NCBI GenBank assembly: GCA_963977795.1
Contig: CAXBRB010000001.1
Location: 1-49,795 of the forward strand
Reading direction: 5' to 3'
Length of the DNA stretch: 49,795 bases
DNA from: an uncultured Acidimicrobiaceae bacterium
Lineage (GTDB): Bacteria; Actinomycetota; Acidimicrobiia; Acidimicrobiales; RAAP-2
The notes under the pieces: generated by a model
What the model was told of the DNA's origin: nothing
The model's input: only the letters and a program-made list of their open reading frames with translations
The model's database searches: none
Shown here: piece after piece, positions 7,264-21,231 of the stretch
Layout: every line of letters starts with the position of its first letter
Position numbering within the stretch: the first letter of the stretch is position 1
Position numbers and translations under genes: made by a program

Positions 7264-8928
7264 GTGCCGGCCGGACACAATGGTCGGGTGACCGAGACCG
7301 TCCCCACCCCGTCCGCCCCGCCGTCCGCCGAGTCGGCCGGAGGTCGGAGCAAGTGGCTGCCCATGCCCTTCGTGGCCCTGGGCGTGGCCATGATCATCGT
7401 CGACGCCACCATCGTGAACGTCGCCGTCCCCACCATCATCCGCGAGCTCCACGTGACGGCCAACACGTCGGAGTGGTTCAACTCGATCTACTCCCTGGTC
7501 TTCGCCTCGCTGCTCATCTCGCTGGGCCATGCCGGCGATGTGTGGGGCCGCCGCAAGCTCTTCGGCCTCGGCACGGTGGTCTTCGTGGTGGCCAGCGTGG
7601 TGGCGGCCACGGCTCCGTCGAGCGGCGTGCTCATCCTCGGCCGCTTCCTCCAGGGGGTGGGCGGGGCGATGATCCTGCCCACCACCCTGTCCACCGTGAA
7701 CGCCATCTACGAGGGCAAGGACCGGGCCGTGGCCTTCGCCATCTGGGGTTCGACCATCGGCGGGATGGCTGCGGTGGGCCCCCTCCTGGGCGGCTGGCTG
7801 ACCACCGACCTCTCGTGGCGGTGGGCCTTCTTCATCAACATCCCCGTCGGGGCGGTGGTGCTCCTGGGCATCGCCCTCTTCGTGCCCGAGACCAAGGATC
7901 CCGCCGTGCGCCGGGGCATCGACTGGTGGGGGAACGTGCTGGCCGTTGTGGGCTTCTCCACCCTGGTCTTCGGCCTCATCGAGGGCGAGCACTACGGCTG
8001 GTGGCGCCAGGTGGACACCTTCACCGTCGGGTCGTGGCACTGGCCGGCCGGCTGGCCCTCCCCCTCCCCGGTGGCTTTCGCCGTGGCCGCGGCCGCCCTG
8101 GTGGCCTTCGTGCTGGTCGAGTCGGCCCGGGCCCGTCGGGGTGCGGTGGTGCTGATGGACCTCTCGCTCTTCCGCATCCGCAGCTTCGGGGCGGGCAACG
8201 TGGCGGTGACCATCGTGGCCTTCGGCGAGTTCGGCATCCTCTTCGCCCTGCCCCTCTTCCTCCAGGGGGTCCTCGGCTATAGCGCCCTCGACACCGGGTG
8301 GCTCTTCCTGGCCCTGGCCCTGGGCTCCTTCGTGGTGGGCGGGGCCACACCGCAGATCGCCAAGGCCATCGGGACCCGGGGGGTGGCCCGCATCGGACTG
8401 GCCCTCGAGGCGGTGGGCATCGTCGGCCTCGGGGTGGCCCTCGGCCCGACGGTGGCGGCCTGGGTCATGGCCATCTGGCTCTTCGTCTACGGCCTCGGGG
8501 TGGGGATGGCCACGGCCCAGCTCACCGGGGTGATCCTGGTCGACGTGCCTGTCGAGGTCTCCGGCCAGGCCTCGGGCATCCAGAGCACCAGCCGCCAGGT
8601 CGGCTCGGCCCTCGGGGTGGCCGTCCTCGGGGCAGCCCTGCTCAGCCAGCTGGGCAGCCGCACGTCGTCGGCCCTGGCCCAGGTGGCCGGCCTGCCCCAG
8701 GCGGCCCGGGAGCAGATCACCGGGGTGGTGCGGGCCTCGGGCGGGGCGGCCATCGACTCCCTCCACCGCCTGCCGCTGGGCGACCAGATCGTGGCCGCGG
8801 CCTCGGGGGCGGCGGTGGACGCGGCCCGGACGGTCTGCTTCCTGGCCGCCGGCTTCATCCTCCTCGGCCTGGTGGCCACCCTGGCCCTGCCCCGCCAGGC
8901 GGCCGACGGGGGTGCGGGCCGGGGCTAG
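7264..8928 (+). CDS. MFS transporter, DHA2 (EmrB/QacA-like, 14-TMS) family
   Basis: Motifs MIIVDATIVNVAVPTI, GDVWGRRKLF and LQGVGGAMILP, with many predicted TM helices. The start could instead be the GTG at 7288. Confidence 0.85.
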   Translation: MPAGHNGRVTETVPTPSAPPSAESAGGRSKWLPMPFVALGVAMIIVDATIVNVAVPTIIRELHVTANTSEWFNSIYSLVFASLLISLGHAGDVWGRRKLFGLGTVVFVVASVVAATAPSSGVLILGRFLQGVGGAMILPTTLSTVNAIYEGKDRAVAFAIWGSTIGGMAAVGPLLGGWLTTDLSWRWAFFINIPVGAVVLLGIALFVPETKDPAVRRGIDWWGNVLAVVGFSTLVFGLIEGEHYGWWRQVDTFTVGSWHWPAGWPSPSPVAFAVAAAALVAFVLVESARARRGAVVLMDLSLFRIRSFGAGNVAVTIVAFGEFGILFALPLFLQGVLGYSALDTGWLFLALALGSFVVGGATPQIAKAIGTRGVARIGLALEAVGIVGLGVALGPTVAAWVMAIWLFVYGLGVGMATAQLTGVILVDVPVEVSGQASGIQSTSRQVGSALGVAVLGAALLSQLGSRTSSALAQVAGLPQAAREQITGVVRASGGAAIDSLHRLPLGDQIVAAASGAAVDAARTVCFLAAGFILLGLVATLALPRQAADGGAGRG

Positions 8929-9911
8929 TCCGCCCCTGCCTCCTGCTGCAGCAGGCGCAGCGTGAGCTGGCTGTGGATGCGGGCCATGGCAGAACGGGAG
9001 ATCCGGTGGTCACGGACCCTCCGGTGGAAGTCGGCGGCGGTGTAGCCGACCACCGTCGATCGGACCCGTGCCCGGGCCGTGGCGGCGCGGGGCAGGTTGA
9101 GCAGGGGCGAGATCTCGCCGAAGTAGTCCCCCGGCACCGCGGTGGCCAGCAGGTCCGCCGGGCCGTCGCTGCGCTCGGCGACCAGCTCTATCTCCCCGTC
9201 CTCCACGACGTAGATCCGGTCCCCCCAGCTCCCCTGGCGGAAGAGGATCTCTCCTGCGTCCAGCTCGACCGGTGTCGGTGCCCCGTCGCTCCAGAGATCG
9301 GGGATGAGATCGATGACGTGGTCGGCGATGGCCTCCAGCCGCCGGTCGTCGGTGGCGACGACGACCGTCGTCGATCCGGAGGCGATGGACCGGGCACAGG
9401 CGGCGACGCCCTCGAGCTCGGTCTGGGGGATCCCCAGGGTGCAGTCGTCGACCACGATCAGTGCAGGCCCGCCGGCAGCAGCCAGCGCGGCGCGCAGGCA
9501 CCACGTCCGGCCTGCAGACAGGGAGTCCACCTGGGCCTCGCCGAAGGAGGCGAGCCCGGCCACGGAGAGCACCTCCTGCACGGCCGCGGACCCGTCTTCC
9601 GCCGTCGTACCGAGCACCGCGGCCACGGCGTCCTCGACCGATCGTCCAGGGCCGTCGGCGAGCGGAGGCAGGCCGTCGACCACCGCCGCTGCCCGGTCCC
9701 CGTCACCGCCGTCGACGTGCACGACCCCCGATGTCGGGGGGATCCGCCCGGTGATGCAGCCGAGCAGCGAGGTCTTGCCCGAGCCGGCGGGGCCGACCAC
9801 GACGACGAGCGAGCCCCGCGCCACGTCGGCCGAGACGCGGGAGACGGCCCGCACGACACGGCCGCCGGCTCCGAACTCGACGGTGACGTCTTCCAAGGTG
9901 AAGTGGGTCAC
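8925..9911 (-). CDS. ABC-type ATPase-like domain (degenerate catalytic motifs) fused to a cyclic-nucleotide-binding domain
   Basis: Walker A is GPAGSGKTS. The signature is LSAGRTW rather than LSGGQ. Walker B is LIVVDDCT, lacking the catalytic Glu. The H-loop position reads ATDD, lacking His. The C-terminal half has a canonical phosphate-binding cassette, YFGEISPLLNLPRAATARA. GTG start at 9911. Confidence 0.8.
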   Translation of the reverse strand: MTHFTLEDVTVEFGAGGRVVRAVSRVSADVARGSLVVVVGPAGSGKTSLLGCITGRIPPTSGVVHVDGGDGDRAAAVVDGLPPLADGPGRSVEDAVAAVLGTTAEDGSAAVQEVLSVAGLASFGEAQVDSLSAGRTWCLRAALAAAGGPALIVVDDCTLGIPQTELEGVAACARSIASGSTTVVVATDDRRLEAIADHVIDLIPDLWSDGAPTPVELDAGEILFRQGSWGDRIYVVEDGEIELVAERSDGPADLLATAVPGDYFGEISPLLNLPRAATARARVRSTVVGYTAADFHRRVRDHRISRSAMARIHSQLTLRLLQQEAGAD

Positions 9912-9933
9912 GTCCGGCACCCCGGAGGTCTGC

Positions 9934-10887
9934 TCACGACGAAGCCGCGGTCGGCGGACGGAGGGCGAGGTGCGACCTGGTGAGCCTGGTCTCCCGGAAC
10001 ACCGTGGTGAGCCGTCCGGCGGCCTGTGGCACGTCGACCACGTTGGCGGCACCGGCCCACAGAGCGGCCTTGAGCTGGAAGGGCCGGAGATGGGGGTGCT
10101 TCGACTTGATGAGGGCGGCGACACCGGAGATGTGGGGGGCGGCGTACGAGTTCCCCGTGGCGGTGATCCGGCCGCTGTCGCGCCAGCTGACCTCGATGTC
10201 CACGCCGGGGGCCAGGAACTCGGTCGGCGGCTCGGGGTTGAAGTGGTACCGGAGCGGGTCCTGGGACATGTTGCAGGCCACGCTGGCCACCGACGAGAAC
10301 AGGGACGGGTAGGTGTCCTTGGCCACGTTGGCGGCGGCGGTCACCACGAGGCTCCCGCTGAAGTAGGCGCGGTCGCACAGCTCGTGGAAGGCCAGCGCCC
10401 ACTCACGGCGGTTGGTGCCGAGGGAGAGGTTGATGACATCGAACCCGTTCTCGATGGCCCATTCCAGGCCGGCCAGGAAGGCGACGACCTTGCCGCCGAG
10501 CCGGGGTCCGAGGACCCGGACGCTGGTGATGGAGGCCTCTGGGGCGATCTGGTGCACGATCCCTGCACAGGCAGTGCCGTGCCCGAAGGCGTCGTCGTGC
10601 GGTCCGGGTGTGATCTGGACCTCGTCGTCGCCCTCCACCGTGATGTAGACACCGCCGGCGGCATCCACGACGTCGCCCAGATCGGGATGGTCGGCCTGGA
10701 TGCCGCTGTCGATGATGGCCACCCGGACGCCGGCCCCGGTGCTGCCGGCCCAAGCCCACTCCCGCGAGAGCGGATCGTTGCGGGCCAGGTCCGGCATCCG
10801 CAGCACGGTGGACTCCCGCGACCAAGCGGGGACGGGACCCTTCGGTCGGATCCGCTGCTCGTCGGCCGGTGTGGTGCCGTCAGGCAC
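9934..10887 (-). CDS. S8 family (subtilisin-like) serine peptidase with no recognisable signal peptide
   Basis: Catalytic triad contexts VAIIDSGI (Asp), FGHGTACAGIV (His) and GNSYAAPHISGVAALI (Ser). The GTG at 10887 overlaps the upstream GAF gene stop by 8 nt. An alternative ATG lies at 10797. The 11007 start would overlap the GAF gene by 128 nt. Confidence 0.85.
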   Translation of the reverse strand: MPDGTTPADEQRIRPKGPVPAWSRESTVLRMPDLARNDPLSREWAWAGSTGAGVRVAIIDSGIQADHPDLGDVVDAAGGVYITVEGDDEVQITPGPHDDAFGHGTACAGIVHQIAPEASITSVRVLGPRLGGKVVAFLAGLEWAIENGFDVINLSLGTNRREWALAFHELCDRAYFSGSLVVTAAANVAKDTYPSLFSSVASVACNMSQDPLRYHFNPEPPTEFLAPGVDIEVSWRDSGRITATGNSYAAPHISGVAALIKSKHPHLRPFQLKAALWAGAANVVDVPQAAGRLTTVFRETRLTRSHLALRPPTAASS

Positions 10888-11425
10888 TGGCCAGGAGTCG
10901 CTGGACGATGTCGGCCAGCAGTGGATACGAGGCCGGCTCCTGTTGGGCGACCCGGCGCAAGCCGTCGGCCAGGAGTTCCGGGGACGGAGGGGCCGGCGCT
11001 CCGGCATCGCCGTGCAGCGCGGCCCCGGCCACGTCGGCCAGGACCGCGGCCAGCTCGACGTCCTCGAAGGTGAACGGCGCCCCGCCGGCCTTGTCGACGA
11101 CCTGGAGGACGCCGACCGACTGGTCCAGGTGGGTGCACGGGATGCTCATCACCGTGGTGGGCACGGTCGGCAGCCATCGGTGGACCCCGTCGTGGAGGCG
11201 GTCGTCCGCCGAGGGGATGGCGACGGCCATCGGCTGCCCGGACGCGAAGGCGAAGCCGGCCGCACCGTCGTCGACGGAGACCCGGCGGCCTCGGATCGAG
11301 GCCGCACCGTGCTCGGCGACGACCTCGAGCTCGCTTTCACGGGCGCAGAGGATCCACCCTGACGCCGCACCGGTCGAGGTGACCGCCGCGTCGACGACGG
11401 CTTGCAGTGCGTGCTGTACGGCCAC
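10880..11425 (-). CDS. GAF domain-containing protein
   Basis: 181 aa with a GAF-like pattern (GWILCARESELEVVAEHG...GFAFASGQPMAV...MSIPC....SVGVLQVVDK....FTFEDVELAAVLADVAG). AGGAG lies 7-8 nt upstream of the GTG at 11425. Confidence 0.7.
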   Translation of the reverse strand: MAVQHALQAVVDAAVTSTGAASGWILCARESELEVVAEHGAASIRGRRVSVDDGAAGFAFASGQPMAVAIPSADDRLHDGVHRWLPTVPTTVMSIPCTHLDQSVGVLQVVDKAGGAPFTFEDVELAAVLADVAGAALHGDAGAPAPPSPELLADGLRRVAQQEPASYPLLADIVQRLLASA

Positions 11426-11445: not shown

Positions 11446-14400
11446 TCACGACGAGGGAGAGCGTAGTGGGGGGGTCGGATCCGCGTCGGCGGCGCCCGGC
11501 GGCGTCAACGGTTGGACCGGACGGGAGTGGCCGAGGGTCACCCGCCCGAGCCGCTGGGCCGAGCGGGGGATCACCACAGGTTCGGAACGGCCGGCCAGCG
11601 CGGCGGCGAGACTCGGGTGTGTGGCGCCCAGGGCGTGCACGGCATCGCCGTCGAGGACGAGGACCGGCAGGGCCTCAGTGGCGACGAGCACTGCCGGGCT
11701 GGCCGCACCGAGGAGCCCGGAGATGCCGAAGCAGGATCCTGCGGACAGCTCGCCCACAGCGACCGGCGCACCGGAGAAGTCCGGCTCCTGGATGGTGGCG
11801 CTCCCGTCCCGGATGAAGAGGATCACGGAGCCGTCATCGTCCTGGGCCGTGCCGGCCGGGAGCTCGTCGCTCCGCATGAGGGGCAGCAGGTCCTCGATGA
11901 CGTCGTCATCGAGAGAGGCGAAGATGGGGACGGATGCGAGCGCTGCACGAGCGTCATCTCGGATGGCGGGCGAGGCCCCGATCACCGACTGCTCGGACCA
12001 CAGGGTGGCGTACAGGCCGCCCAGCGCCAGCAGCTCGTCGTGTCGGCCCTGCTCGACCAGACGGCCGTCTTCCAGCACCACGATGCGGTCGTAGTCGGCG
12101 ATGGAGGCCAGCCGGTGCGAGACGGAGATGACCGTGCGCCCGCGCCCGGCATCGGCGAGGGTGGCGCTGATCAGTCGCTCGGTCCGGGCATCGAGCGCCG
12201 AGGTCGCCTCGTCGAGGATCAGGAGGTCGGGATCGCGGAGGAGCGCCCGGGCGAGTGCCAGGCGCTGACGCTGGCCTCCCGACAGGCGGCTCCCGTGCTC
12301 ACCGACCTCCGTCGAGACGCCGTCCGGCAGCTCGGACACGAATGCCCCCAGGTCCACGGCGGCGATCACCGCCTCGACCTCGGCATCGGTGGCGTCCGGT
12401 CGGCCCATGCGGATGTTCTCGGCGATGCTGGCGTTGAAGAGGAACGAGTCCTGTGCCACCAGACCGATGCGCCGCCGCCAGGACGAGACGTCCACCGTCC
12501 CGAGGTCGACGCCGTCGACCAGGATGCTCCCCAGGTCGGGCTGGTAGAAGCGGAGGAGCAGCTGCAGGATCGATGACTTGCCGGAGCCGGTCGGTCCGAC
12601 GATGGCCACCCGCTCCCCGACGGCGACACGGAAGGAGACGCCGTCGATGGTGGTGTGTCCGGCGCCGTAGGAGAAGGAGACGTCGCGGAGCTCGATGCCC
12701 TGACGGACGCCCTCCAGCGGCGGGAGGTCGACCTCGGGTTGCTCGAGCGGGGCCTCGAGGATCTCGTCGATCCGGCTGACGGCACCGGTCGATGCCTGGA
12801 ACTGCTGCCCGATGGTGGTGAGCTCGGTCACCGGCCCCATGGCCTCTGCGCTGACGGTCACGAAGGCGACCAGTCCTCCGACGGTGAGGTGGCCGTGGAA
12901 GACCAGCCAGGAGCCGATCAGCAGGATGACCAGACGGCTGAGGATGATGATCGAGCTCACCGAGAACTGGAAGTACCCACCGAAGAGCGCCAGCCGCACC
13001 TGCCGACGCACCAGTGACGACGAGGCCTCGTGCATCCGGTGGAGCTCCCGGTCCTCGAGGCCGAAGGCGCGGATCACGGCCCGGCCGACGTACCCCTCGG
13101 AGATGATGGCCAGGAGGCCGCCGGTCTCGGACTGGACCGCCAGGCTCCGCTCCTGGGCGCCTCGGGTCATGAGCCGGTAGACGACCGCCACCACGGGAAG
13201 CGAGGCGAGCGTGATGAGCCCGAGGACCGGATCGAGGGTCAGCATCACCACGGCCGAGACAGTCAGCGAGAGGACCTGGGCCACGCCGCCGCGCAGCGCC
13301 TGGGTCAGGCCCTGCTCGACCAGCTCGACATCGGAGAAGATGCGCGACAGCACGTCTCCCTGCTCGTGCTCCCCGAACCAGCCGAACGGGAGGTGCTGCA
13401 GGCGGTCGTACATCTGCGAGCGGATCTGACGGACGACGTCGGTGCTCACCACGGCGGCGAGGTACGTGCTCCGGAGCTGGGCCGCCATGGAGACGGCGAA
13501 GATGGCCAACAGGACGCCGATGACGGCCAGGACGTGACTGAACTGCCTGCTGGGGATGGCCGAATCGATCAGGGTGCGGAAGGCGAAGGGGAATGCCGCG
13601 ATGAAGGCCAGGCCCACGAGGGTGTAGCAGAAGAGCTCGAGCTCGCGGTACCAGTGGGGCCGGAGGTACGTGGAAGCGAGGTGCAGGAGGGACCGGCCGC
13701 CGCCGGGACCGGATGAGCCGGCGAGGTGGGAGCGCCATGCCGCCTCGAGGTCGGTGATCTCCTCCTGGCTGCCTCCCTCGGTGGTCGGCGCCAGGAGGAG
13801 GTGCTCGACGGCCTGGCGTCCGAGCCGCCCGACCATGTAGCTGACGAACGAGAGCTGCAGGGCCGCCCCGAGCTCGCCGCTCGCTTCGTCCCGTGCGGGG
13901 AGATCGGCGACCGTCCGGAGGGCCTCGGTCGGATCCTCGGATCCGGCCGCCCAGAGGCCGAAGGCCTCGAGCAGCGGACCTGACGTCGGCGGGGCTCCCA
14001 GCGCCGCTCCGGCGCACAGAGCGAGCGGCCGCTCGAGCGGATCGGGAGGTGCACCGCCGGCCACCACGGTCCAGACCGAGCACGACGCCGGATCCACCAC
14101 CGAGCCGTCGACCAGGATCTCATCAGGGTGGTGGGGATCGGCCGTCGGATCGATGAGGTGCACCGTCGGGATCCGCGTCCGGAGGCCACGCCCCAGGTCG
14201 CCGAGGCGCTCGACCGCCAGCTGGGCGCGCCTCGCCACATCGGCGACGACATGGGCACCGGGGCCGTCCGGATGGAAGCGGACGACCACGAAGGGTGTGA
14301 TTGCGGCCGCCATGGGCGGCCTTCCGTCCACGGCTGCATCGATGACGACGGTGGCCGCGCCGTTCCGCACCACGTCACCTGGTGCCACCGCCACCGGTCC

Positions 14401-14616
14401 GGGGGTGGGCACCCCGTTGACGGTGGTGTGACCCGGTTCCCCCTCCTCGGTGACGGCGAGACCCGTCGGCGTTACGTCGAAGCGCAGCCCGCGGTCCGCT
14501 GCCCGGTCCTCGGTGACGATGCGGCCGTCGGCGTCGAGGTCGAGGACGAAGGACCCGTCCACGCCGGTGTCCACCGTCGTCCCGTCCCCCGCCGAGTAGT
14601 AGAGCCGGTACTGCAT
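11446..14616 (-). CDS. Multidomain ABC exporter: FHA-like N-terminus, unknown ~220-aa region, type-I exporter TMD, canonical NBD, cNMP-binding-like C-terminus
   Basis: The TMD has six hydrophobic helices. The NBD carries GPTGSGKSS, LVAQDS, LSGGQRQR, LLILDEATSALD and SVSHR. The C-terminus reads PIFASLDDDVIEDLL...GSCFGISGLLGAASPAVLVA, a degenerate phosphate-binding cassette. The N-terminus reads ...HTTVNGVPT....V.PGDVVRNG.ATVVI, which is FHA-like. The ATG at 14616 shares one nucleotide with the kinase stop (TGATG). Confidence 0.85.
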   Translation of the reverse strand: MQYRLYYSAGDGTTVDTGVDGSFVLDLDADGRIVTEDRAADRGLRFDVTPTGLAVTEEGEPGHTTVNGVPTPGPVAVAPGDVVRNGAATVVIDAAVDGRPPMAAAITPFVVVRFHPDGPGAHVVADVARRAQLAVERLGDLGRGLRTRIPTVHLIDPTADPHHPDEILVDGSVVDPASCSVWTVVAGGAPPDPLERPLALCAGAALGAPPTSGPLLEAFGLWAAGSEDPTEALRTVADLPARDEASGELGAALQLSFVSYMVGRLGRQAVEHLLLAPTTEGGSQEEITDLEAAWRSHLAGSSGPGGGRSLLHLASTYLRPHWYRELELFCYTLVGLAFIAAFPFAFRTLIDSAIPSRQFSHVLAVIGVLLAIFAVSMAAQLRSTYLAAVVSTDVVRQIRSQMYDRLQHLPFGWFGEHEQGDVLSRIFSDVELVEQGLTQALRGGVAQVLSLTVSAVVMLTLDPVLGLITLASLPVVAVVYRLMTRGAQERSLAVQSETGGLLAIISEGYVGRAVIRAFGLEDRELHRMHEASSSLVRRQVRLALFGGYFQFSVSSIIILSRLVILLIGSWLVFHGHLTVGGLVAFVTVSAEAMGPVTELTTIGQQFQASTGAVSRIDEILEAPLEQPEVDLPPLEGVRQGIELRDVSFSYGAGHTTIDGVSFRVAVGERVAIVGPTGSGKSSILQLLLRFYQPDLGSILVDGVDLGTVDVSSWRRRIGLVAQDSFLFNASIAENIRMGRPDATDAEVEAVIAAVDLGAFVSELPDGVSTEVGEHGSRLSGGQRQRLALARALLRDPDLLILDEATSALDARTERLISATLADAGRGRTVISVSHRLASIADYDRIVVLEDGRLVEQGRHDELLALGGLYATLWSEQSVIGASPAIRDDARAALASVPIFASLDDDVIEDLLPLMRSDELPAGTAQDDDGSVILFIRDGSATIQEPDFSGAPVAVGELSAGSCFGISGLLGAASPAVLVATEALPVLVLDGDAVHALGATHPSLAAALAGRSEPVVIPRSAQRLGRVTLGHSRPVQPLTPPGAADADPTPPLRSPSS

Positions 14617-15674
14617 CACGGCACCTCTGTCCGGGCGCGTCGCTCGACGGCCGGTCCGGACCGTCGGGCCCGGCCGGGACGGTCGATTCGCCCCCAGCTG
14701 TGGGACGGCGCCTGGGGGTCGGACCTGCCGCCGGGACCTGGGTGGTGCTGGCGGGAGCCCCGCTCGGTCACGGCGACCAGCTCGGGAGCTCCGTGGATCG
14801 GCACATCCGTCGCTGAGAGCCATCCGGCACCCCAGGCGTCGGTCGCCGCGCTGGCGAGGGCCAGGCCGAACGCCATCGCCGAGCTCGGGCGATCGCGGTG
14901 GTCGGTGCGCAGACCGAGCATCACGACCTCGGCAACTGCCTCGGGAAGCTCCGGGTTCTTGGTGCGCAGCGGATCCGGCTGCTCGTAGGCGTGCTGGTAC
15001 AGCAGGTCCATCGGGTCTCCGGTCTCCTGGAACGGGAGCTCGCCGCACAGGAGCTCGTAGAGGACGGTGGCGGCGGCGTAGACGTCGGCGGCCGGGGTGA
15101 TCACACCGTTCCACGTCTGCTCGGGGGCGATGTAGGCCGGAGTCCCGACGATCTCGGACGCCTCCCCGCCTGACGCTGTCGATGTCTCCGTGGTGGTGGC
15201 GATGCCGAAGTCCGTGACCTTGAGGGTGCCGTGCTGGTTGAACAGGAGGTTCTCCGGCTTGATGTCCCGATGGAGGATGCCCCGTCCGTGCGCAGCGTCG
15301 AGCCCGGTCAGGCAGGCGAGGAGCAGCGCCACCGACGTGCGGGCCGTCAGCCCGGCATCGGCAAACCGGCTCCACAGGGAGCCGCCGGCCAGGTTCTCCA
15401 TGAGGAGGAGGAAGACGCCGTCGTGCTCGACGAAGTCGTAGACGGGGACGATGTGCGGATGGTCCACTGAGGCCAGCAGGGTCGCCTCCGCCACGAAGCG
15501 CTCCCGTGCGGCGTCGTCGGCGGCGAAGGCCCTCGGGAGGAACTTCACCGCGACCTCGCGTCCGAGCCGGTTGTGGCGGGCGGCCAGGACGACGCCGAGC
15601 CCCCCACGGCCGATCTCGCCGGTCACCTCGTAGCCCGGCAGCGCCGCGGCGACCAGGGGCCGGTCGAGCATCAC
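14616..15674 (-). CDS. Hanks-type Ser/Thr protein kinase, cytoplasmic, no TM segment
   Basis: GEIGRGGLGVV (P-loop), VAVK, HRDIKPENLL, DFG and GTPAYIAPE. GGGAGG lies 5 nt upstream of the start. The C-terminal ~75 aa are low-complexity. Confidence 0.9.
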   Translation of the reverse strand: MMLDRPLVAAALPGYEVTGEIGRGGLGVVLAARHNRLGREVAVKFLPRAFAADDAARERFVAEATLLASVDHPHIVPVYDFVEHDGVFLLLMENLAGGSLWSRFADAGLTARTSVALLLACLTGLDAAHGRGILHRDIKPENLLFNQHGTLKVTDFGIATTTETSTASGGEASEIVGTPAYIAPEQTWNGVITPAADVYAAATVLYELLCGELPFQETGDPMDLLYQHAYEQPDPLRTKNPELPEAVAEVVMLGLRTDHRDRPSSAMAFGLALASAATDAWGAGWLSATDVPIHGAPELVAVTERGSRQHHPGPGGRSDPQAPSHSWGRIDRPGRARRSGPAVERRARTEVP

Positions 15675-15858: not shown

Positions 15859-18336
15859 TCAGGAAGCCGAGCGGAGGCACATGGTCATCGGTTCGGGGAG
15901 GTGCTCGAAGAGCTCCCAGCCGGTCCACGGCGGGATGCGGAACCCCTGCTCGTCAGCGGTGAGCACCGTCTCGAACATCCGCACGGCGCCGGAGAGCCAG
16001 AACAGCTCGGAGCCAGCGTCCCCGCGGAGCACGGCGAGGAGCGCCTGGCCCGAGAGGTGCACGACGAAGCTGGCATCGGGGTGGGGCGTGGGACGAAGGA
16101 CGAGCTCGGCCGGTCGGAAGTCGATCGAATAGGTGAACCGGCGTCCACCCCCGACGTGGACGGTCGCCTGCCAGACCACCCCCCACTGCTTCCACGGGGT
16201 CAGGTCCATAGAGGACACGTAGGCGGAGAAGCGGGTGGTCAGGAACGTGTCGAGGAGGGTGGCGAGCTCGGCGATCTCGCCCTCGTCGACGCCGGGGAGC
16301 GTCGAGGTGTCGACAGGTTCGAACTCCTCGCTCGATCCGTTCCCGCCGCCGTCGACGACGACCGGCGAGGATGCCCGGCGGACATCGACCTGTCGTCCGT
16401 CGATGTGCACCGAGTCCCCGGGTCGGAGGACGCCGGCCCGTCCGTGGCCGAGCCGGCGTTCGAGCAGCCGGGCGATCCGGTCGTCACGGAGCGGGGCCAC
16501 GTACCGGTTGGCCCAGGCGGCCTCGGCGCAGTAGGCCAGGCCCCAGAACGACGGGAAGACGAAGCCTGGATCGGTGGCGCAGGCCGCCTCGAGCCAGTCC
16601 ACGACCGACGCCCGCTCGTCATGGCTGACGCCGAGTCCCCGCTGGGTGCTCCACAGGGCCGTGCCCGGTTGGAAGTGGGCCGCCACGCAGCCCATCGGCC
16701 CGAGCTCGTCGCGCAGCCGGGCCCCGACCCCCGGTCGCACCAGGGAGTCCGACACGTGCCAGTACGAGCCGTTGCCGCTCCGGATCACGACGCCGAACTC
16801 GTCCAGCTCGGCATCGGAGGGAGTGGCGGTGATCTCGACGTCGTCGTCCTTCCACCTGTCCCAGGGAGCGAGCGGATGGACGTCGGTGAATCCGAGTCGG
16901 TGGACGGTTGTCAGCAGGTAGTCGTCGTGCGGGGCGAGCACCGTCGCCGACCGTGGAAGCGAGGTGAGCGAGTCGGGGTGGAAGTGATCGAGATGCTGGT
17001 GCGTCAGGACGATGTGGGTGATCTCGGCAAGTTCGCCGTGCGCGAACGTCCGACGCGGCCGGAACTCGACCGTCCCCGACCCGATGACCGGAGCGAACAC
17101 CGGGTCGATGATGATCCGGCGTCGCTCGGTATCGACCAGGGTCGTGGCGTGGCCCGCCGCCGTCACTGTCAGGGACCCCGACCGCACGGCGGCCGGCAGC
17201 GTGCCGACCGACTCCCCGTGGGCGATCATCCGAGCCACCGTTTCGGGAGCATGCTGTTCGGCGATGGAGGCGGCGACGGCTGCTGCCGAGCGTCGGCCTG
17301 AGTCGCCGGAGCGCAACCGGATGGCCTCCACGAGCGCCCCGGGATCGGGCCCGGTGGCGTCGAGGATGGTGCAGGCTCCGGCCGCGGCGACCGCATCGGA
17401 CAGGAGCTGCTGGAACGGGCTGCACGGCAGGAGGACGAGGGGGACCCCCGAGGAGAGCGCACGGAGGACGGGGACGGGGTCGCCGTGGGTGACGACCACG
17501 TCCGGCGCCTCCTGCACGGCCGTCATCTCCGTGCCGTCCTCCTGGCGCGAGGCGAGCGAGGTGCGCTCGAGGGTGGTCGTGGACAGGCGGATCCCGTAGC
17601 CGCCGGCGTGCAGGGCCCCGACGGTGCGGGCGACCATCGGTGTCAGGTCGGTGGAGGTCAGCCCGAGATCGACCAGGACGGTCGGCGGGGTCCGTCCGTC
17701 CTCCGGTGCAGGAGCGCGGCGCTCGGGCTCAGGGGTGCAGCGCATCGGGATCGTCACCCCGGGAGCTTCGACGCCGTTGCGCAGCAGACGGGGGCGGATG
17801 TCGACGTAGGGGTGCGCGTAGAGCCCTGCGTGGGGTTCGGGCTCCAGGCCCCAGGTCCTCCACAGCGGAGCGACGGCGTCGGATGCTGCTGCCGTCCACT
17901 CGGTGGGGAGCACGGGCCCGCAGCACACCGACCGGACGCCGGCCAGACGGGCGGCCAGCGGAGCGGCCAGGGCGCACGGGTCGTGGGCCACCAGCTCGAA
18001 CCCCCCGTCGGCCACGAGCCGGATCAGGTCGGCTGCAGATGCCGGTGCCATGACCCCGCCGAAGAGGTGGGCCATCGAGAAGGCGCCGCGCTCGTTCCGG
18101 TCCAGCGACGCCAGGTCCGGATGGTTCCGGAGGTACTGCTGCCGGGCCTGCTCGGCGGGCCAGCCCACAGCGGTCCAGGATCCTGCCCCGGCGTCTGTCG
18201 GAGTGTCCGGCGGTCCGGCGAACTCGACGGCGTGGCCGAGCTCGGCGAATGCACCCGCCAGGGTGTCGAGAGGCCGCAGCAGCTCGGGCCCGCCTGCGGA
18301 GACGAAGAGGACGCGCACGGTGGGCTGATGGTACAC
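15859..18336 (-). CDS. Fusion protein: GT1 (MGT-type) glycosyltransferase-like N-terminal half, MBL-fold metallo-hydrolase domain, C-terminal SCP2-like region
   Basis: The N-terminus VRVLFVSAGG...LGH.V and the overall layout resemble GT-B glycosyltransferases. The donor motif is divergent (THGDPVPVLRALSSGVPLVLLPCSPFQQ). The MBL motif is VLTHQHLDHFHPDSL. The C-terminal ~180 aa (LSGQALLAVLRGDAGSELFWLSGAVRM) look SCP2-like. The start may instead be the GTG at 18318. Confidence 0.75.
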   Translation of the reverse strand: MYHQPTVRVLFVSAGGPELLRPLDTLAGAFAELGHAVEFAGPPDTPTDAGAGSWTAVGWPAEQARQQYLRNHPDLASLDRNERGAFSMAHLFGGVMAPASAADLIRLVADGGFELVAHDPCALAAPLAARLAGVRSVCCGPVLPTEWTAAASDAVAPLWRTWGLEPEPHAGLYAHPYVDIRPRLLRNGVEAPGVTIPMRCTPEPERRAPAPEDGRTPPTVLVDLGLTSTDLTPMVARTVGALHAGGYGIRLSTTTLERTSLASRQEDGTEMTAVQEAPDVVVTHGDPVPVLRALSSGVPLVLLPCSPFQQLLSDAVAAAGACTILDATGPDPGALVEAIRLRSGDSGRRSAAAVAASIAEQHAPETVARMIAHGESVGTLPAAVRSGSLTVTAAGHATTLVDTERRRIIIDPVFAPVIGSGTVEFRPRRTFAHGELAEITHIVLTHQHLDHFHPDSLTSLPRSATVLAPHDDYLLTTVHRLGFTDVHPLAPWDRWKDDDVEITATPSDAELDEFGVVIRSGNGSYWHVSDSLVRPGVGARLRDELGPMGCVAAHFQPGTALWSTQRGLGVSHDERASVVDWLEAACATDPGFVFPSFWGLAYCAEAAWANRYVAPLRDDRIARLLERRLGHGRAGVLRPGDSVHIDGRQVDVRRASSPVVVDGGGNGSSEEFEPVDTSTLPGVDEGEIAELATLLDTFLTTRFSAYVSSMDLTPWKQWGVVWQATVHVGGGRRFTYSIDFRPAELVLRPTPHPDASFVVHLSGQALLAVLRGDAGSELFWLSGAVRMFETVLTADEQGFRIPPWTGWELFEHLPEPMTMCLRSAS

Positions 18337-18344
18337 AGGGAGGC

Positions 18345-20327
18345 GTGCACGTGGCTCTGCTGTTCCCCCCGGTCGTGGACCCCCGGGGGCCTCATCTGGC
18401 GATCCCGTCCCTAGCGGCGCACCTGCGGGCGTCAGGGGTGCGCACCACGGTTCGGGACCTGAACGTCGAGGGCCTGTGGGCGTTGACCGAACCCGAGGCG
18501 CTGGAGGACCGGGTCGACGAGCGCACGGCGGCGGCCGTGGCCCGGGCCCGGTCGGTGCTCCGGGACCCCGAAGCGTTCTACGACCCCGATCAGCTGGCGG
18601 CGGCCCGGGCGGCCCTGGCGGCGGCGTGCACTGCCTGGAGCGACCCGGCCGGACGCGTCCGCTATCAGGCGATGGGTGCCGCCTATGACGTGGACGGCTG
18701 CGATCCGACCCGTCTGGCCGACCTGATCGCCGTCACCGCCGACCGATCCACCAATCTGTTCGACGGGCTCTGGCGTTCGGAGCTCCTCCCAGCCCTCGCC
18801 GAGGACCGGCCCGATGTCATCGGCATCTCCATCCTCAACCGTCAGCAGATCATCCCCGGTCTCCACCTCGCCCGCATGCTCCACGAGGCCGGGCACGTGG
18901 TGGCCATCGGCGGCACGGTGTTCGCCAAGTTCGCGCCCGAGCTCATGCGACGGCCGGCGTTCTTCTCGACGTTCTGCCGCGCCGTGGTCCCCTACGAGGG
19001 GGAGCACGCCCTCCTGGAACTCGTCCGGTCCGTGTCCGCCGGCGGGACCGGCGAAGGCGTCGCCAACACGCTGGTGCTCGGTCCGTCGGGAGCCGTCGTC
19101 GCCGGCCCGACCATGGTCGAAGAGGTCCCGCACCTGCCCACGCCCGACTTCGACGGCCTGCCCCTCGACCGGTACCTTGCGCCACACCTCGTGCTGCCGA
19201 TCCTGACGGGCAAGGGGTGCTACTTCAACCGGTGCAAGTTCTGCGACATCCCCGCCATCAACCGGATCTCCCCCCGGGCTTACCGGATGCGCCCGGCGGA
19301 TCAGGTGGCCGCGGATGTCGTCGCCCTCCATCGACGCCACGGCGCCCGGCACTTCGAGATCACCGACGAGACCCTCTCGCCGGCGTTCCTCCGCAAGCTC
19401 GGGCGCGCCCTTGCGGAGATCGACGGGGGTCCTGAGGTGCGAGCCCGATTCGTCGGCTACGCCCGATTCGAGCCCGGCTTCACCCCGGAGGCCTGCGCTG
19501 AGCTCTACGCCATGGGCGTGCGGAAGCTGTACTTCGGGTTGGAGTCCGGATCCCAGGTGATGCTCGACCGGATGGACAAGGGGATCCGCCTTCCCGTCGT
19601 GCGCACCGTGCTCCGCAACTGCGTCGAGGCAGGCATCGCCGTGCACCTGTTCTCGATCATCGGCTTCCCGGAGGAGACCGAGGAGCTGGCGGCCGAGACA
19701 GTCGGCTTCCTGCTCGAGGAGTCGGACACGCTCGCCGACCCCCGCAACACCTTCGACGTCCACCCGTTCGGCCTCGACCTGCGCACCGACTACGCCGACC
19801 AGGCTGACGAGTTCGGTGTGGACATCGACCGGGTGGTCCTCCGCACCCAGGACTTCCCGATCAGCGTCTCACGGTGGGTCAACCGCCGGGGGATGGATCC
19901 TGCCCAGGTCGCCGATGTGCTCGACCGGGCCGTGGGCTCGCTGCGGGAACGGTACCGGTCCTCGGGGCGGAACTTCCCGGACCAGCAGTTCCCCGGGTTC
20001 GAGGAATACGCCGTGCTCTACCTGGACCGCTACGAGGACGTCCCGTTCCTCCACCGGCTCAGCCTTCCTGAGCCCGACGACCCCCAGCGCTACTCCATCG
20101 AGTGGGCGGAGGACATCGAGCTCTCGTCGGAAGGTGCAGACGCCTGGAGCGTGCAGACGCGGTTCGGATCGTGCTCGGTCGGGGCCGACGAGCTGCGCGC
20201 CCTGGCGCCGTCCCGGCCGGGACAGCCGGTGGCCGGCCACCGCGCGGCCTGGGCAGATTCCGGTGTGGCGATGGCCACCGTGGACGGGCTCATCGCCATC
20301 CGGGCGCTCCTCCTCCGTCCGGCCTGA
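18345..20327 (+). CDS. B12-binding domain radical SAM enzyme (class B rSAM)
   Basis: The N-terminal half looks like a B12-binding domain (VALLFPP...PSLAAHLRASG, DVIGISIL....I.....LARMLHEAGH.VAIGG). The cluster motif GKGCYFNRCKFCDIP lies at nt 19218-19244. The GTG at 18345 is preceded by AGGGAGG at 18337-18343. Confidence 0.85.
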   Translation: MHVALLFPPVVDPRGPHLAIPSLAAHLRASGVRTTVRDLNVEGLWALTEPEALEDRVDERTAAAVARARSVLRDPEAFYDPDQLAAARAALAAACTAWSDPAGRVRYQAMGAAYDVDGCDPTRLADLIAVTADRSTNLFDGLWRSELLPALAEDRPDVIGISILNRQQIIPGLHLARMLHEAGHVVAIGGTVFAKFAPELMRRPAFFSTFCRAVVPYEGEHALLELVRSVSAGGTGEGVANTLVLGPSGAVVAGPTMVEEVPHLPTPDFDGLPLDRYLAPHLVLPILTGKGCYFNRCKFCDIPAINRISPRAYRMRPADQVAADVVALHRRHGARHFEITDETLSPAFLRKLGRALAEIDGGPEVRARFVGYARFEPGFTPEACAELYAMGVRKLYFGLESGSQVMLDRMDKGIRLPVVRTVLRNCVEAGIAVHLFSIIGFPEETEELAAETVGFLLEESDTLADPRNTFDVHPFGLDLRTDYADQADEFGVDIDRVVLRTQDFPISVSRWVNRRGMDPAQVADVLDRAVGSLRERYRSSGRNFPDQQFPGFEEYAVLYLDRYEDVPFLHRLSLPEPDDPQRYSIEWAEDIELSSEGADAWSVQTRFGSCSVGADELRALAPSRPGQPVAGHRAAWADSGVAMATVDGLIAIRALLLRPA

Positions 20328-20391
20328 CCGAGACAGCCTCGGGTCGGCGGCAGGACCGTGCTGAGGCGGGCGGATGCCGCCGGCGGGACGC

Positions 20392-20445: not shown

Positions 20446-20482
20446 GTACTGCAGCAGCACACGATGGAGAGGAGCGCCGCAG

Positions 20483-20740
20483 ATGGCGGAGGAGCACGAG
20501 GGTGGTGTCGTCCTGCGGGGCGACGACGGATCGCTGTACTTCATCCGGGAGTCGACGCTTGCGGCCTGCAAGGCCGAGGGCGAGTTCGTTGACCGGGTGA
20601 ACGAGATGGTGGAGGGGAGCGAGGTCGAGGGGTACGCCCTCACGACGACGTCGCTGAGCACGGTGACCACGGTGTCCTCGACGTCGACGTCGACGCCGAC
20701 GGTGAAGCCGGCGGGCACCACCATGATGTGCCCCTGGTGA
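20483..20740 (+). CDS. RiPP precursor peptide A1 (85 aa): ~52-aa leader plus Ser/Thr-rich core ending MMCPW
   Basis: MAEEHEGGVVLRGDDGSLYFIRESTLAACKAEGEFVDRVNEMVEGSEVEGYA / LTTTSLSTVTTVSSTSTSTPTVKPAGTTMMCPW. 18 of the last 33 residues are Ser or Thr. RBS GGAGAGGAG is present. The gene is adjacent to the modifying enzymes and has a paralogue 422 nt downstream. Confidence 0.8.
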   Translation: MAEEHEGGVVLRGDDGSLYFIRESTLAACKAEGEFVDRVNEMVEGSEVEGYALTTTSLSTVTTVSSTSTSTPTVKPAGTTMMCPW

Positions 20741-20810
20741 TCGCCGACTCGTGACTGCCGGACGGCCGAGAAGGACTTGCCGTGGCTGGCGGATGCCCCC
20801 GGCAAGACGC

Positions 20811-20904: not shown

Positions 20905-21156
20905 ATGTCGGAGGAGCAAGAGGGTGGAGTCGTCCTGCGGGGCGACGACGGTTCGCTGTACTTCATCCGGGAGTCGACGCTTGCGGCCTGCAAGGCCGAG
21001 GGCGAGTACGTCGACCGGGTGAACGAGATGGTGGAGGGGAGCGAGGTCGAGGGGTACGCCTTGACGACGACGTCGCTGAGCACGGTGACCACGGTGTCGA
21101 CGATTACTCCGACGTCGGTGAAGACGTCCATGACCACGGTCATGTGCCCCTGGTGA
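20905..21156 (+). CDS. RiPP precursor peptide A2 (83 aa), paralogue of A1
   Basis: MSEEQEGGVVLRGDDGSLYFIRESTLAACKAEGEYVDRVNEMVEGSEVEGYA / LTTTSLSTVTTVSTITPTSVKTSMTTVMCPW. The leader is 49/52 identical to A1. 17 of the last 31 residues are Ser or Thr. Confidence 0.8.
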   Translation: MSEEQEGGVVLRGDDGSLYFIRESTLAACKAEGEYVDRVNEMVEGSEVEGYALTTTSLSTVTTVSTITPTSVKTSMTTVMCPW

Positions 21157-21220: not shown

Positions 21221-21231
21221 GCGTACAGCAG

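What the first reader, a model, noticed from the sequence alone, without database searches (positions are those of the whole stretch)
11446..15674. Ser/Thr kinase translationally coupled to an ABC exporter with an FHA-like head and a cNMP-binding-like tail
The kinase stop and the exporter start share one nucleotide (TGATG at 14614-14618). The exporter is a half-transporter (TMD-NBD) with canonical ATPase motifs. Its first ~100 aa resemble an FHA domain (…TTVNGVP…PGDVVRNG…) but lack the canonical Arg/Ser-x-x-His phosphothreonine contacts. Its last ~120 aa resemble a cyclic-nucleotide-binding domain with a degenerate phosphate-binding cassette (CFGISGLLGAASPAV). A kinase paired with an FHA-bearing ABC transporter recalls PknF/Rv1747 of M. 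tuberculosis. That transporter is a different ABC type with a different domain order. Located next to a RiPP cluster whose cores are Thr-rich, this module could gate export through phosphorylation. It could even recognise phospho-Thr on the peptide, though that is speculative.
Basis: partly seen in the sequence, partly recalled or inferred. Interest (0 to 1): 0.65.

Follow-up and report, generated by a model that had tools for sequence, protein, structure and literature searches.

The report
Kinase-linked peptide exporter with dead FHA
This kinase and ABC exporter belong to a previously undescribed, conserved four-gene peptide-processing and export module of uncultured Acidimicrobiia-type actinobacteria, and this copy alone has lost the phosphothreonine-reading residues that would link it to its kinase.

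Summary
An intact 352-aa Hanks kinase (14616..15674, minus strand) overlaps a 1056-aa ABC half-transporter (11446..14616) in TGATG.

About 25 homologues (40-50% identity) carry Pfam FHA and cNMP_binding domains. AlphaFold2 and Foldseek confirm an FHA fold for residues 1-94. Residues ~105-300 look like a zincin peptidase that lacks HExxH.

The exporter is rare: 43 loci in 185,579 species genomes, nearly all Acidimicrobiia or Nitriliruptoraceae MAGs. It almost always travels with an orthologous kinase (27 of 28 loci), a GAF protein and a cytoplasmic S8 protease (26 of 28 each). Small ORFs carrying a [DE]VxG[FY] motif accompany it: 49 observed against about 2 expected. Both Thr-rich precursors in the window have this motif (SEVEGY).

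All 41 homologue loci whose N-terminus was recovered keep GR/SRRH/SxNGT. Only the window copy has replaced every phosphothreonine contact. Its kinase has also lost the transmembrane and sensor part.

Kinase-to-FHA gating is therefore a good hypothesis for the family, but unlikely to work through the FHA head here. The CNB tail lacks the cNMP-binding Glu and Arg in every member.

Verdict: a new variant of known kinds (PknF/Rv1747; peptide exporter plus leader protease).

The parts
14616..15674 (-). Hanks-type Ser/Thr kinase, 352 aa (351 aa from the ATG at 15671). It is soluble, with no transmembrane or sensor domain.
   Evidence: Pfam Pkinase E 7e-49 and all catalytic motifs present. It is 45-62% identical to the module-linked kinases of homologous loci. 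Those are 420-1070 aa receptor kinases with a transmembrane segment and an extracellular domain.
14614..14618 (-). TGATG stop/start overlap between kinase and exporter, with a GAGG motif 7 nt upstream
11446..14616 (-). ABC half-transporter, 1056 aa, with the architecture FHA-like / zincin-like / TMD / NBD / CNB-like / tail
14326..14616 (-). Degenerate FHA domain (aa 1-97). All phosphothreonine contacts are replaced: R>L27, S>A40, H>G43, S>E60, N>G62.
   Evidence: Alignment A1. AF2 pLDDT about 85-92. Foldseek matches FhaA, Ki67, GarA and OdhI with probability 1.0 and target-normalised TM-score 0.6-0.73. All 41 homologue loci whose N-terminus was recovered are canonical.
13717..14304 (-). Family-specific alpha/beta domain (aa 105-300) with a zincin (gluzincin)-like fold. 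HExxH is absent (ERPLA), and E217 in the LLEaFG segment is invariant in the family.
   Evidence: AF2 pLDDT 92.8. Foldseek hit lists are dominated by M1, M61, collagenase G and PPEP-1 peptidases, but E >= 0.2 for the domain alone. In the two-domain model E is 6e-4 to 1e-3. Pfam Peptidase_MA_2 matches weakly (E 0.01-0.05) in 3 of 6 family members tested, not in the window protein itself.
12817..13641 (-). Transmembrane domain (aa ~326-600), type I exporter (ABCB-like) fold
   Evidence: Pfam ABC_membrane E 4e-38; NCBIfam MsbA/HlyB-like matches
11992..12699 (-). Nucleotide-binding domain (aa ~640-875) with intact Walker A, Walker B, signature, Q-loop and H-loop
11581..11940 (-). CNB-fold domain (aa ~893-1012). 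Its phosphate-binding cassette, CFGISGLLGAASPAV, lacks the cNMP-contacting Glu and Arg.
10880..11425 (-). Stand-alone GAF protein (181 aa), a conserved partner of the exporter
   Evidence: Pfam GAF_2 E 1e-9. Present in 35 of 37 homologous loci with at least 2 kb downstream.
9934..10806 (-). Cytoplasmic S8 subtilase (290 aa) with an intact Asp/His/Ser triad and no signal peptide; a conserved partner
   Evidence: Pfam Peptidase_S8 E 3e-30. NCBIfam QhpE-like E 3e-30 and mycosin-like matches. It is 55-68% identical across loci and present in 35 of 37. Sequence.
8925..9920 (-). Soluble NBD + CNB protein (331 aa) with a canonical cassette (FGE...PRAAT); possibly a fifth gene of the operon
20483..20740 (+). 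Precursor peptide 1 (85 aa): leader ...VLRGDDGSLYFIRESTL..., junction SEVEGY, Thr/Ser-rich core, C-terminal MCPW
20905..21156 (+). Precursor peptide 2 (83 aa) with the same leader and the same SEVEGY junction

Best explanation
The two genes are the first half of a conserved operon-like module: kinase, exporter, GAF protein, S8 protease.

What I infer for the module. It matures and exports ribosomal peptides whose leaders end in a [DE]VxG[FY] motif. The exporter is a homodimeric ABCB-type half-transporter. Its cytoplasmic N-terminus carries an FHA domain and an inactive zincin-like domain. I infer that the zincin-like domain docks the leader or peptide, much as the C39 or C39-like domain does in other peptide exporters. 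The S8 protease is the likely leader peptidase, cutting at or near the motif (SEVEGY in the window).

What I infer for the family's regulation. The kinase is a membrane receptor kinase and the FHA is canonical. Export is therefore probably tuned by threonine phosphorylation read by the FHA, as in PknF/Rv1747.

What differs in this window. The regulatory link is dismantled. The kinase has lost its membrane and sensor part. The FHA has lost every phosphothreonine contact. The C-terminal RRx(S/T)G(T/S)F motif and the conserved 'type A' peptide are absent. The exporter most likely still exports the thioamidated and dehydrated product of the adjacent cluster. The FHA-like head would then act as a structural or phospho-independent scaffold. 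The still-intact kinase would act on other sites or be a relic.

Shown: domain identities, conservation of the gene set, motif enrichment, and loss of residues.
Inferred: substrate, cleavage site, direction of regulation, and consequences of the losses.
For: Family and architecture. About 25 full-length homologues carry Pfam FHA + ABC_membrane + ABC_tran + cNMP_binding. AF2 gives pLDDT 86 and pTM 0.80. Foldseek returns FHA hits and zincin hits. The CNB profile matches PKA RI-alpha at E 5e-19.

Rarity and taxonomy. The N-terminal region has 56 representatives among 1.84 billion proteins. There are 43 loci in 185,579 species genomes, nearly all Acidimicrobiia or Nitriliruptoraceae MAGs.

Conserved gene set. 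Of 28 well-flanked loci, 27 have the kinase, 26 the GAF protein and 26 the S8 protease. Of 37 loci with at least 2 kb downstream, 35 have GAF and 35 have S8.

Peptide link. Of 1526 small high-GC3 ORFs, 49 carry [DE]V.G[FYW]. Permuted motifs give 1-3, and residue shuffles give a mean of 2.0 and a maximum of 6. Both window precursors and their 10 database relatives carry EV[EQ]G[FY]. Tailoring enzymes differ between loci: rSAM, glycosyltransferase, YcaO/TfuA/LanB.

S8 protease. It resembles QhpE, the cytoplasmic leader protease of QhpC.

Losses in the window. The FHA is canonical in all 41 homologue loci whose N-terminus was recovered and degenerate only here. Homologue kinases have a transmembrane segment and an ectodomain, whereas the window kinase is 352 aa with none. 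No type A peptide is found in the window. The tail motif is missing.
Against: - No experiment supports any step.
- All relatives are uncultured MAGs.
- The zincin-like assignment is not statistically significant for the isolated domain (E >= 0.2).
- The cleavage site and the identity of the transported substrate are inferred from co-location only.
- The exporter could serve self-immunity rather than product export.
- The kinase in the window is fully intact and translationally coupled. That argues it is still used, so 'dismantled regulation' may be too strong. Phosphorylation could act directly on the transporter without FHA reading.
- The family's FHA ligand is unknown. Conserved tail motifs have Ser as often as Thr, which does not fit FHA specificity.
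Confidence: 0.6

Rival explanations
1. In this window the kinase phosphorylates the exporter or the Thr-rich peptides, and the FHA-like head reads that phosphothreonine to gate export.
For: The kinase is intact and coupled to the exporter. The FHA fold is retained with high predicted confidence. The cores are Thr-rich. The PknF/Rv1747 precedent exists (PMC3138270).
Against: All five canonical pThr contacts are replaced (R>L, S>A, H>G, S>E, N>G), while all 41 homologue loci whose N-terminus was recovered keep them. The module accompanies cores that are not Thr-rich. Dehydration here is by a LanB-type enzyme, which works by glutamylation and needs no phosphorylation (established knowledge of class I dehydratases).
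Confidence: 0.1
2. The kinase is a biosynthetic enzyme. It phosphorylates Ser/Thr of the core for elimination or as a final modification, like the kinase domains of class III/IV lanthionine synthetases. The exporter is merely co-transcribed with it.
For: There are weak NCBIfam similarities to LanL and LanKC kinase domains. The cores are Thr/Ser-rich.
Against: The best matches are PknB-type signalling kinases (240 bits, against 84 bits for LanL). Orthologues are receptor kinases with transmembrane and extracellular domains. They occur in loci with unrelated cores, or with only the conserved type A peptide. No lyase partner was detected. The split LanB is present.
Confidence: 0.07
3. The module has nothing to do with the neighbouring peptides. 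It is a signalling-regulated exporter of some other substrate, for example lipid or glycolipid as proposed for Rv1747 or MsbA-like exporters. Its adjacency to the RiPP cluster is coincidental.
For: The best NCBIfam matches for the core are MsbA-like, though all are below cutoff. Some loci (L008, L009) show no obvious tailoring enzyme within 10 kb.
Against: The S8 protease is conserved in 35 of 37 loci. Small ORFs with one shared motif are enriched about 25-fold. Different RiPP tailoring sets lie next to the module in different loci, including an orthologous YcaO/rSAM/LanB cluster.
Confidence: 0.1
4. The exporter is a self-immunity pump for the producer, and another route exports the product.
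For: ABC exporters in RiPP clusters often confer immunity (established knowledge). An MFS transporter lies nearby at 7264..8928.
Against: The exporter has an N-terminal peptide-docking-like domain and is tightly conserved with a leader-type protease and with the precursors' junction motif. Both fit a maturation and export role better. Immunity ABC systems are usually separate NBD and permease genes (LanFEG type), unlike this fused ABCB type.
Confidence: 0.1

Closest known systems
PknF / Rv1747 of Mycobacterium tuberculosis (Spivey et al. 2011, PMC3138270)
   Same: A Hanks Ser/Thr kinase is encoded next to, and in one operon with, an ABC exporter that carries N-terminal cytoplasmic FHA domain(s). 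In that system phosphorylation positively regulates the transporter.
   Different: Rv1747 has two FHA domains and the NBD-then-TMD (ABCG-like) order. It has no CNB domain, no peptidase-like domain, and no GAF, S8 or peptide partners. Here there is one FHA, the order is TMD then NBD (ABCB-like), and the window's FHA has lost its pThr contacts.
Peptidase-containing ABC transporters (PCATs), in particular HetC of Nostoc (PMC10986499) and the cNMP + C39 ABC transporters of Cupriavidus and cyanobacteria
   Same: They are ABCB-type half-transporters for ribosomal peptides with an N-terminal cytoplasmic peptidase(-like) docking domain and an added CNB domain. HetC's CNB does not bind cAMP and binds ppGpp in vitro. 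This parallels the non-canonical cassette here. The Cupriavidus proteins are among the sequence hits.
   Different: PCATs use a C39 cysteine peptidase and double-glycine leaders, and their CNB is N-terminal. Here the accessory domain is zincin-like and lacks HExxH, the CNB is C-terminal, the leader motif is [DE]VxG[FY], and a separate S8 protease is present.
LanP/LanT-type and QhpE/QhpF-type pairs (a subtilisin-like leader protease plus an ABC exporter for a modified ribosomal peptide)
   Same: A subtilase and an ABC exporter are encoded together with precursor peptides and tailoring enzymes. The S8 protein here matches the QhpE model at E 3e-30, below its cutoff.
   Different: None of those pairs includes a kinase, an FHA, CNB or GAF component, or the junction motif seen here.
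FHA-fold scaffolds without phosphothreonine binding (YscD/PscD cytoplasmic domains, Pfam Yop-YscD_cpl)
   Same: The FHA beta-sandwich is retained while the canonical Arg/Ser/His/Asn contacts are missing. YscD and PscD are among the structural hits. That YscD lacks pThr-binding residues is from my own knowledge of the literature.
   Different: Those are type III secretion ring components, not ABC transporters. The window's domain is a recent degenerate derivative of a canonical FHA family.

Membership tests
FHA domain (PF00498) | 11-stranded beta-sandwich fold homologous to FHA domains | tested here: met
   The domain aligns column by column with 25 Pfam-positive homologues. The AF2 model plus Foldseek gives FhaA, Ki67, GarA and OdhI with probability 1.0 and target-normalised TM-score 0.6-0.73. 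Pfam itself gives no hit on the window protein.
FHA domain (PF00498) | Phosphothreonine-contacting residues: Arg of GR, Ser and His of SxxH, Ser/Thr and Asn of (S/T)xNG | tested here: not met
   The window has D26-L27, A40-D41-R42-G43 and E57-E58-G59-E60-P61-G62-H63-T64. All 41 homologue loci whose N-terminus was recovered retain the canonical residues.
Cyclic nucleotide-binding domain (PF00027) | CNB beta-roll fold and sequence homology | tested here: met
   The family profile against PKA RI-alpha gives E 5e-19. The window protein alone gives 22.8 bits (below GA 27.5) and E 2e-4 to PKG. No structure was predicted for this region.
Cyclic nucleotide-binding domain (PF00027) | Phosphate-binding cassette with the Glu (ribose 2'-OH) and Arg (phosphate) contacts, FGE...R[ST]A | tested here: not met
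   The window has FGISGLLGAASPA and the family consensus is FGlxALLGxxxGA. Both residues are missing in all 26 aligned members.
ABCB-type (type I exporter fold) half-transporter | TMD of the ABC_membrane family followed by an NBD with Walker A/B, signature, Q-loop and H-loop | tested here: met
PknF/Rv1747-type STPK-regulated FHA-ABC transporter | An adjacent cognate Hanks kinase conserved with the FHA-bearing transporter | tested here: met
   27 of 28 well-flanked loci have a kinase, 45-62% identical in most loci and 37% in one.
PknF/Rv1747-type STPK-regulated FHA-ABC transporter | Two FHA domains, NBD-then-TMD order (ABCG-like), and sequence homology to Rv1747 | tested here: not met
   There is a single FHA. 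The order is TMD then NBD. The best core matches are MsbA, HlyB and NHLP-type exporters.
PknF/Rv1747-type STPK-regulated FHA-ABC transporter | Kinase phosphorylates the transporter and the FHA is needed for function | not testable with these tools
   This requires biochemistry and genetics.
Peptidase-containing ABC transporter (PCAT) | N-terminal C39 cysteine peptidase domain and double-glycine leaders | tested here: not met
   There is no Peptidase_C39 hit. The precursors have no GG/GA site at the junction and carry SEVEGY instead.
Gluzincin / Peptidase_MA metallopeptidase | Thermolysin-like catalytic fold | tested here: inconclusive
   Foldseek lists are dominated by M1, M61, M9 and PPEP-1 with query-normalised TM-score up to 0.55. 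E is at least 0.2 for the isolated domain and 6e-4 to 1e-3 in the two-domain model. Pfam PF13485 gives E 0.01-0.05 in 3 of 6 family members tested, not in the window protein. There is no PDB sequence hit.
Gluzincin / Peptidase_MA metallopeptidase | HExxH zinc-binding motif | tested here: not met
   The corresponding helix reads ERPLA in the window and (E/H)RPLA in the family. Only the downstream Glu (E217, LLEGYG) is invariant.
Hanks-type Ser/Thr protein kinase | Catalytic motifs: GxGxxG, VAxK, alphaC Glu, HRD, DFG, APE | tested here: met

The most novel reading that the evidence does not exclude
The ancestral module is a self-contained peptide signalling circuit. In this reading, the S8 protease cuts the conserved ~85-aa 'type A' peptide at EVxGF and the FHA-ABC-CNB pump exports the product. 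The extracellular domain of the receptor kinase senses it. The kinase then feeds back on the pump through the FHA domain. The same processing and export platform has been reused as a class-independent maturation cassette for diverse RiPPs. This would be an actinobacterial counterpart of the NHLP/Nif11 + PCAT system. The window would be an 'unplugged' derivative in which sensor, pThr reader, tail motif and signal peptide were lost together.
Probability: 0.2. Interest if true: 0.8.

Novelty: new variant of a known kind. Interest (0 to 1): 0.62.

Why it matters
If the module works as inferred, three things follow.

1. It defines a class-independent leader motif and a processing and export cassette for ribosomal peptides in Acidimicrobiia, a large, uncultured and chemically unexplored group. 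That gives genome miners a handle: search for the exporter's unique N-terminal domain or the [DE]VxG[FY] junction. It also gives heterologous-expression work a defined protease and pump.

2. It would be only the second FHA-bearing ABC exporter system linked to a cognate Ser/Thr kinase, after PknF/Rv1747. It has a different transporter fold and an extra CNB-fold domain that cannot bind cNMP canonically.

3. The window offers a natural 'loss-of-reader' variant. It could be compared directly with canonical homologues to test what the FHA-kinase link does.

Tried and rejected
- A PDB sequence search with residues 1-325 gave no hit at E <= 10.
- A PDB profile search with the middle domain gave only noise.
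- A word-indexed homology search with the N-terminal 325 aa found only two fragments. The full-length query and the exhaustive HMMER scan were needed.
- Pfam and NCBIfam scans of the precursors and of the conserved type A peptide gave no family.
- I tried to gauge selection on the degenerate FHA from variants in the 90% cluster. One variant is identical and one differs only by a C-terminal frame change after about residue 868, so this was uninformative.
- I looked for more orthologous RiPP clusters through precursor homologues. There are 10 relatives, but all sit on 1-3 kb contigs, so no context could be read.
- Literature searches found no description of this architecture or module. The FHA mention in the pamtide paper concerns an unrelated FHA-VWA cluster.
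- I considered whether the P/A-rich linker after the FHA, deleted in the window, is the phospho-acceptor region as in Rv1747. Several canonical homologues also have short, Thr-free linkers, so I did not use it as evidence.
- I considered the conserved tail motifs (RLSRxT, RRxSGTF) as FHA ligands. The acceptor position is Ser about as often as Thr, so this remains only a lead.

Full report
**1. What is in the sequence**

The window has 72% G+C. On the minus strand, a 352-aa ORF (14616..15674) and a 1056-aa ORF (11446..14616) overlap in the sequence TGATG. The stop TGA lies at 14618-14616 and the start ATG at 14616-14614. A GAGG motif sits 7 nt upstream of the ATG.

The first ORF is a Hanks-type kinase. 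Pfam Pkinase matches at E 7e-49 and the best NCBIfam match is the PknB type. The glycine loop, VAVK, HRD, DFG and APE motifs are all intact.

The second ORF has ABC_membrane at residues 332-593 and ABC_tran at 658-806, with intact ATPase motifs. It also has a sub-threshold cNMP_binding match at 925-998 (22.8 bits against a cutoff of 27.5). Pfam finds nothing in residues 1-325. The observation as written is therefore correct.

**2. The head and the tail are real domains, shown by homology**

A full-length search found about 25 proteins of 1070-1146 aa that are 40-50% identical. Pfam annotates them as FHA + ABC_membrane + ABC_tran, mostly with cNMP_binding as well.

In the alignment, every homologue shows the canonical FHA signature: GR, SRRH and DLGSxNGT. 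The window protein aligns without gaps through the same strands but reads DL, ADRG and EEGEPGHT.

AlphaFold2 on residues 1-325, run with this alignment, gave pLDDT 86 and pTM 0.80. Foldseek against the PDB returned FHA domains (FhaA/Rv0020c, Ki67, GarA, OdhI, YscD) for residues 1-~97, with probability 1.0 and target-normalised TM-score 0.6-0.73. The head is an FHA fold that has lost its phosphothreonine contacts.

For the tail, the window sequence alone matches the PKG CNB-B domain at E 2e-4. A profile of the family's C-termini matches PKA RI-alpha at E 5e-19. The cassette lacks both the Glu and the Arg that contact the cyclic nucleotide. This holds in all 26 aligned members, not only in the window. 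The tail is therefore a CNB-fold domain that is unlikely to bind cAMP or cGMP in the canonical way. HetC of Nostoc is a precedent: it is a peptide exporter whose CNB domain binds ppGpp rather than cAMP in vitro (PMC10986499).

**3. A third accessory domain**

Residues ~105-300 form a confident alpha/beta domain (pLDDT 92.8). It is specific to this family. An exhaustive HMMER scan with residues 1-325 found only 56 representatives among 1.84 billion proteins.

Structural hits are dominated by zincin metallopeptidases: M1 aminopeptidases and LTA4H, M61, collagenase G and PPEP-1. In the two-domain model E is 6e-4 to 1e-3. For the isolated domain E is at least 0.2, with query-normalised TM-score up to 0.55. 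Three of six family members tested, though not the window protein itself, give weak Pfam Peptidase_MA_2 matches in the same register.

The HExxH motif is absent, replaced by (E/H)RPLA. A downstream Glu (E217, LLEGYG) is invariant.

I read this domain as an inactive zincin-like module and a candidate peptide-docking domain. That assignment has moderate confidence only.

**4. The genes are part of a conserved module**

A pattern scan of one genome per species (185,579 species) found 43 loci. Nearly all are Acidimicrobiia (Acidimicrobiaceae, Microthrixaceae, Iamia) or Nitriliruptoraceae MAGs.

A tblastn search with the window's proteins showed a consistent gene set:
- Among 28 loci with at least 4 kb upstream and 3 kb downstream, 27 have a kinase (45-62% identical in most; 37% in one), 26 have the small GAF protein and 26 have the S8 protease.
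- Among 37 loci with at least 2 kb downstream, 35 have the GAF protein and 35 have the S8 protease.

The commonest order is kinase > exporter > GAF > S8 on one strand, as in the window. Other loci place the kinase divergently upstream or after the S8 gene. Gene calls for four examples agree.

In the window, the GAF gene (10880..11425) and the S8 gene (9934..10806) follow the exporter with gaps of 20 and 73 nt.

The S8 protein has an intact catalytic triad and no signal peptide. It resembles QhpE, a cytoplasmic leader protease.

**5. Link to peptides**

Small high-GC3 ORFs near the module share a [DE]VxG[FY] motif in mid-sequence. Of 1526 small ORFs, 49 carry it. Permuted motifs give 1-3, and residue shuffles give a mean of 2.0 with a maximum of 6.

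The sequences after the motif are highly diverse (Cys-rich, Gly-rich, Ser/Thr-rich). The neighbouring tailoring enzymes also differ: radical SAM enzymes, glycosyltransferases, YcaO/TfuA/LanB.

Both window precursors read ...GSEVEGY-ALTTT.... Their ten database relatives conserve EV[EQ]GF and a C-terminal T(I/L/V)MCPW.

Locus L050 carries the orthologous YcaO/B12-rSAM/LanB set together with the full module. The pair is therefore not lost from the one orthologous RiPP cluster that could be examined. It does not occur 'widely without RiPP genes' either, because it nearly always travels with the S8 protease and motif-bearing peptides.

A conserved ~85-aa 'type A' peptide (...LAALLAPGV...EVxGF..DW.P..LPD.LA.A.R..G.RVEGL) is present in about 30 of the 45 non-redundant homologue loci (23 of the 28 well-flanked ones). 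It is absent from the window.

**6. What is special about the window copy**

All 41 homologue loci whose N-terminus was recovered keep the FHA phosphothreonine contacts. Only the window copy has replaced them.

Homologous kinases are 420-1070 aa receptor kinases with a transmembrane segment and extracellular domains, including Kelch and other beta-propellers. The window kinase stops about 70 residues after the catalytic domain, in an Arg/Pro-rich tail without any hydrophobic segment. Second-codon-position G+C is unusually high in that tail.

The conserved C-terminal RRx(S/T)G(T/S)F motif of the exporters is also missing, as is the type A peptide.

The exporter itself is identical in at least five metagenome contigs, the window among them. 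It is therefore not an assembly artefact.

**7. Mechanism**

*Shown:*
- the domain architecture FHA / zincin-like / TMD / NBD / CNB;
- the conserved kinase-exporter-GAF-S8 gene set;
- the enrichment of the shared peptide motif;
- the specific losses in the window.

*Inferred:*
- The S8 protease removes the leader at or near the motif.
- The exporter, a homodimer, takes up the peptide through its zincin-like domain and exports it.
- In the family, the receptor kinase tunes export through phosphothreonine read by the FHA, as PknF does for Rv1747 (PMC3138270).
- In the window that reading step is gone. The FHA-like head is a scaffold at most. The intact kinase acts on other sites or is a relic.

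I put about 0.6 on this overall picture. I put about 0.8 on the narrower statement that the window's head cannot bind phosphothreonine canonically.

**8. Comparison with known systems and novelty**

The system works like PknF/Rv1747 in pairing a kinase with an FHA-bearing exporter. It works like PCAT or LanT/LanP and QhpE/QhpF systems in pairing peptide processing with export. It is a member of none of them:
- the transporter fold and domain order differ from Rv1747;
- there is no C39 domain and no double-glycine leader;
- no known system combines FHA, a zincin-like domain, CNB, GAF, S8 and a kinase.

Neither Pfam, NCBIfam nor the searched literature describes the exporter's middle domain, the peptides or the module.

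I rate it a new variant of known kinds. The window's copy is an interesting degenerate derivative.

Noticed in passing
window 15859-27531, with precursors at 20483-20740 and 20905-21156: This is a RiPP cluster with a split LanB-type dehydratase, YcaO + TfuA (thioamidation), a B12-radical SAM enzyme and an 825-aa glycosyltransferase-like/metallo-beta-lactamase fusion. Its two precursors belong to an unnamed family with the leader ILRGDDGSLYFIRDEVLAACKVEGEY and an invariant C-terminus T(I/L/V)MCPW. No Pfam or NCBIfam family covers the precursors.
   Followed up: partly
window 8925-9920 (-): A soluble 331-aa protein made of an ABC NBD plus a CNB domain. Walker A is intact, the signature is degenerate (LSAGR) and Walker B reads VVDD with no catalytic Glu. 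Unlike the exporter's tail, the CNB domain has a canonical cNMP cassette (FGEISPLLNLPRAAT). It lies 13 nt after the S8 gene and may be a fifth operon member.
   Followed up: partly
homologous loci, e.g. L011 4528-4797, L020 3734-3997, L009 9631-9873: A conserved ~85-aa 'type A' small protein carrying the EVxGF motif followed by DW.P..LPD.LA.A.R..G.RVEGL. It is present in about 30 of the 45 non-redundant module loci and absent from the window. It may be the module's ancestral substrate or signal.
   Followed up: partly
C-termini of the exporter homologues (alignment A1/A3); window aa 1017-1056: The homologues carry two conserved basic Ser/Thr motifs after the CNB domain: PxGGxRL(S/T)Rx(T/S) and (V/I)RRx(S/T)G(T/S)F. 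The second resembles a basophilic kinase substrate or pseudosubstrate site and is absent from the window protein. The first is partly kept (QRLGRVT).
   Followed up: no
kinase, window aa ~296-300 (LVAVTERGS), and the homologous kinases: A short (A/V)(A/V)T(E/D)R motif just after the kinase domain is conserved across most module kinases, including the truncated window kinase. It is a candidate autophosphorylation or FHA-docking threonine.
   Followed up: no
window 34907-40901 (+): The classic actinobacterial cell-wall signalling cluster: FhaA (FhaA_N + canonical FHA), a PP2C phosphatase, a PBP transpeptidase and a PASTA-domain PknB kinase. The organism therefore has canonical FHA readers and a phosphatase elsewhere.
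   Followed up: partly
L051 (CAZLEC010000004.1): This contig is labelled 'uncultured Burkholderiales' yet carries peptides identical to those of L005 and the same module with near-identical similarity scores. It is probably a binning error.
   Followed up: no
P0175 (variant of the exporter, 1055 aa): A metagenomic variant that is identical up to about residue 868 and then diverges over the whole CNB tail. This is consistent with a frameshift or assembly difference.
   Followed up: no
homologous loci L005, L008, L009: ECF-type sigma factor genes recur within a few kb of the module. They may be part of its regulation.
   Followed up: no
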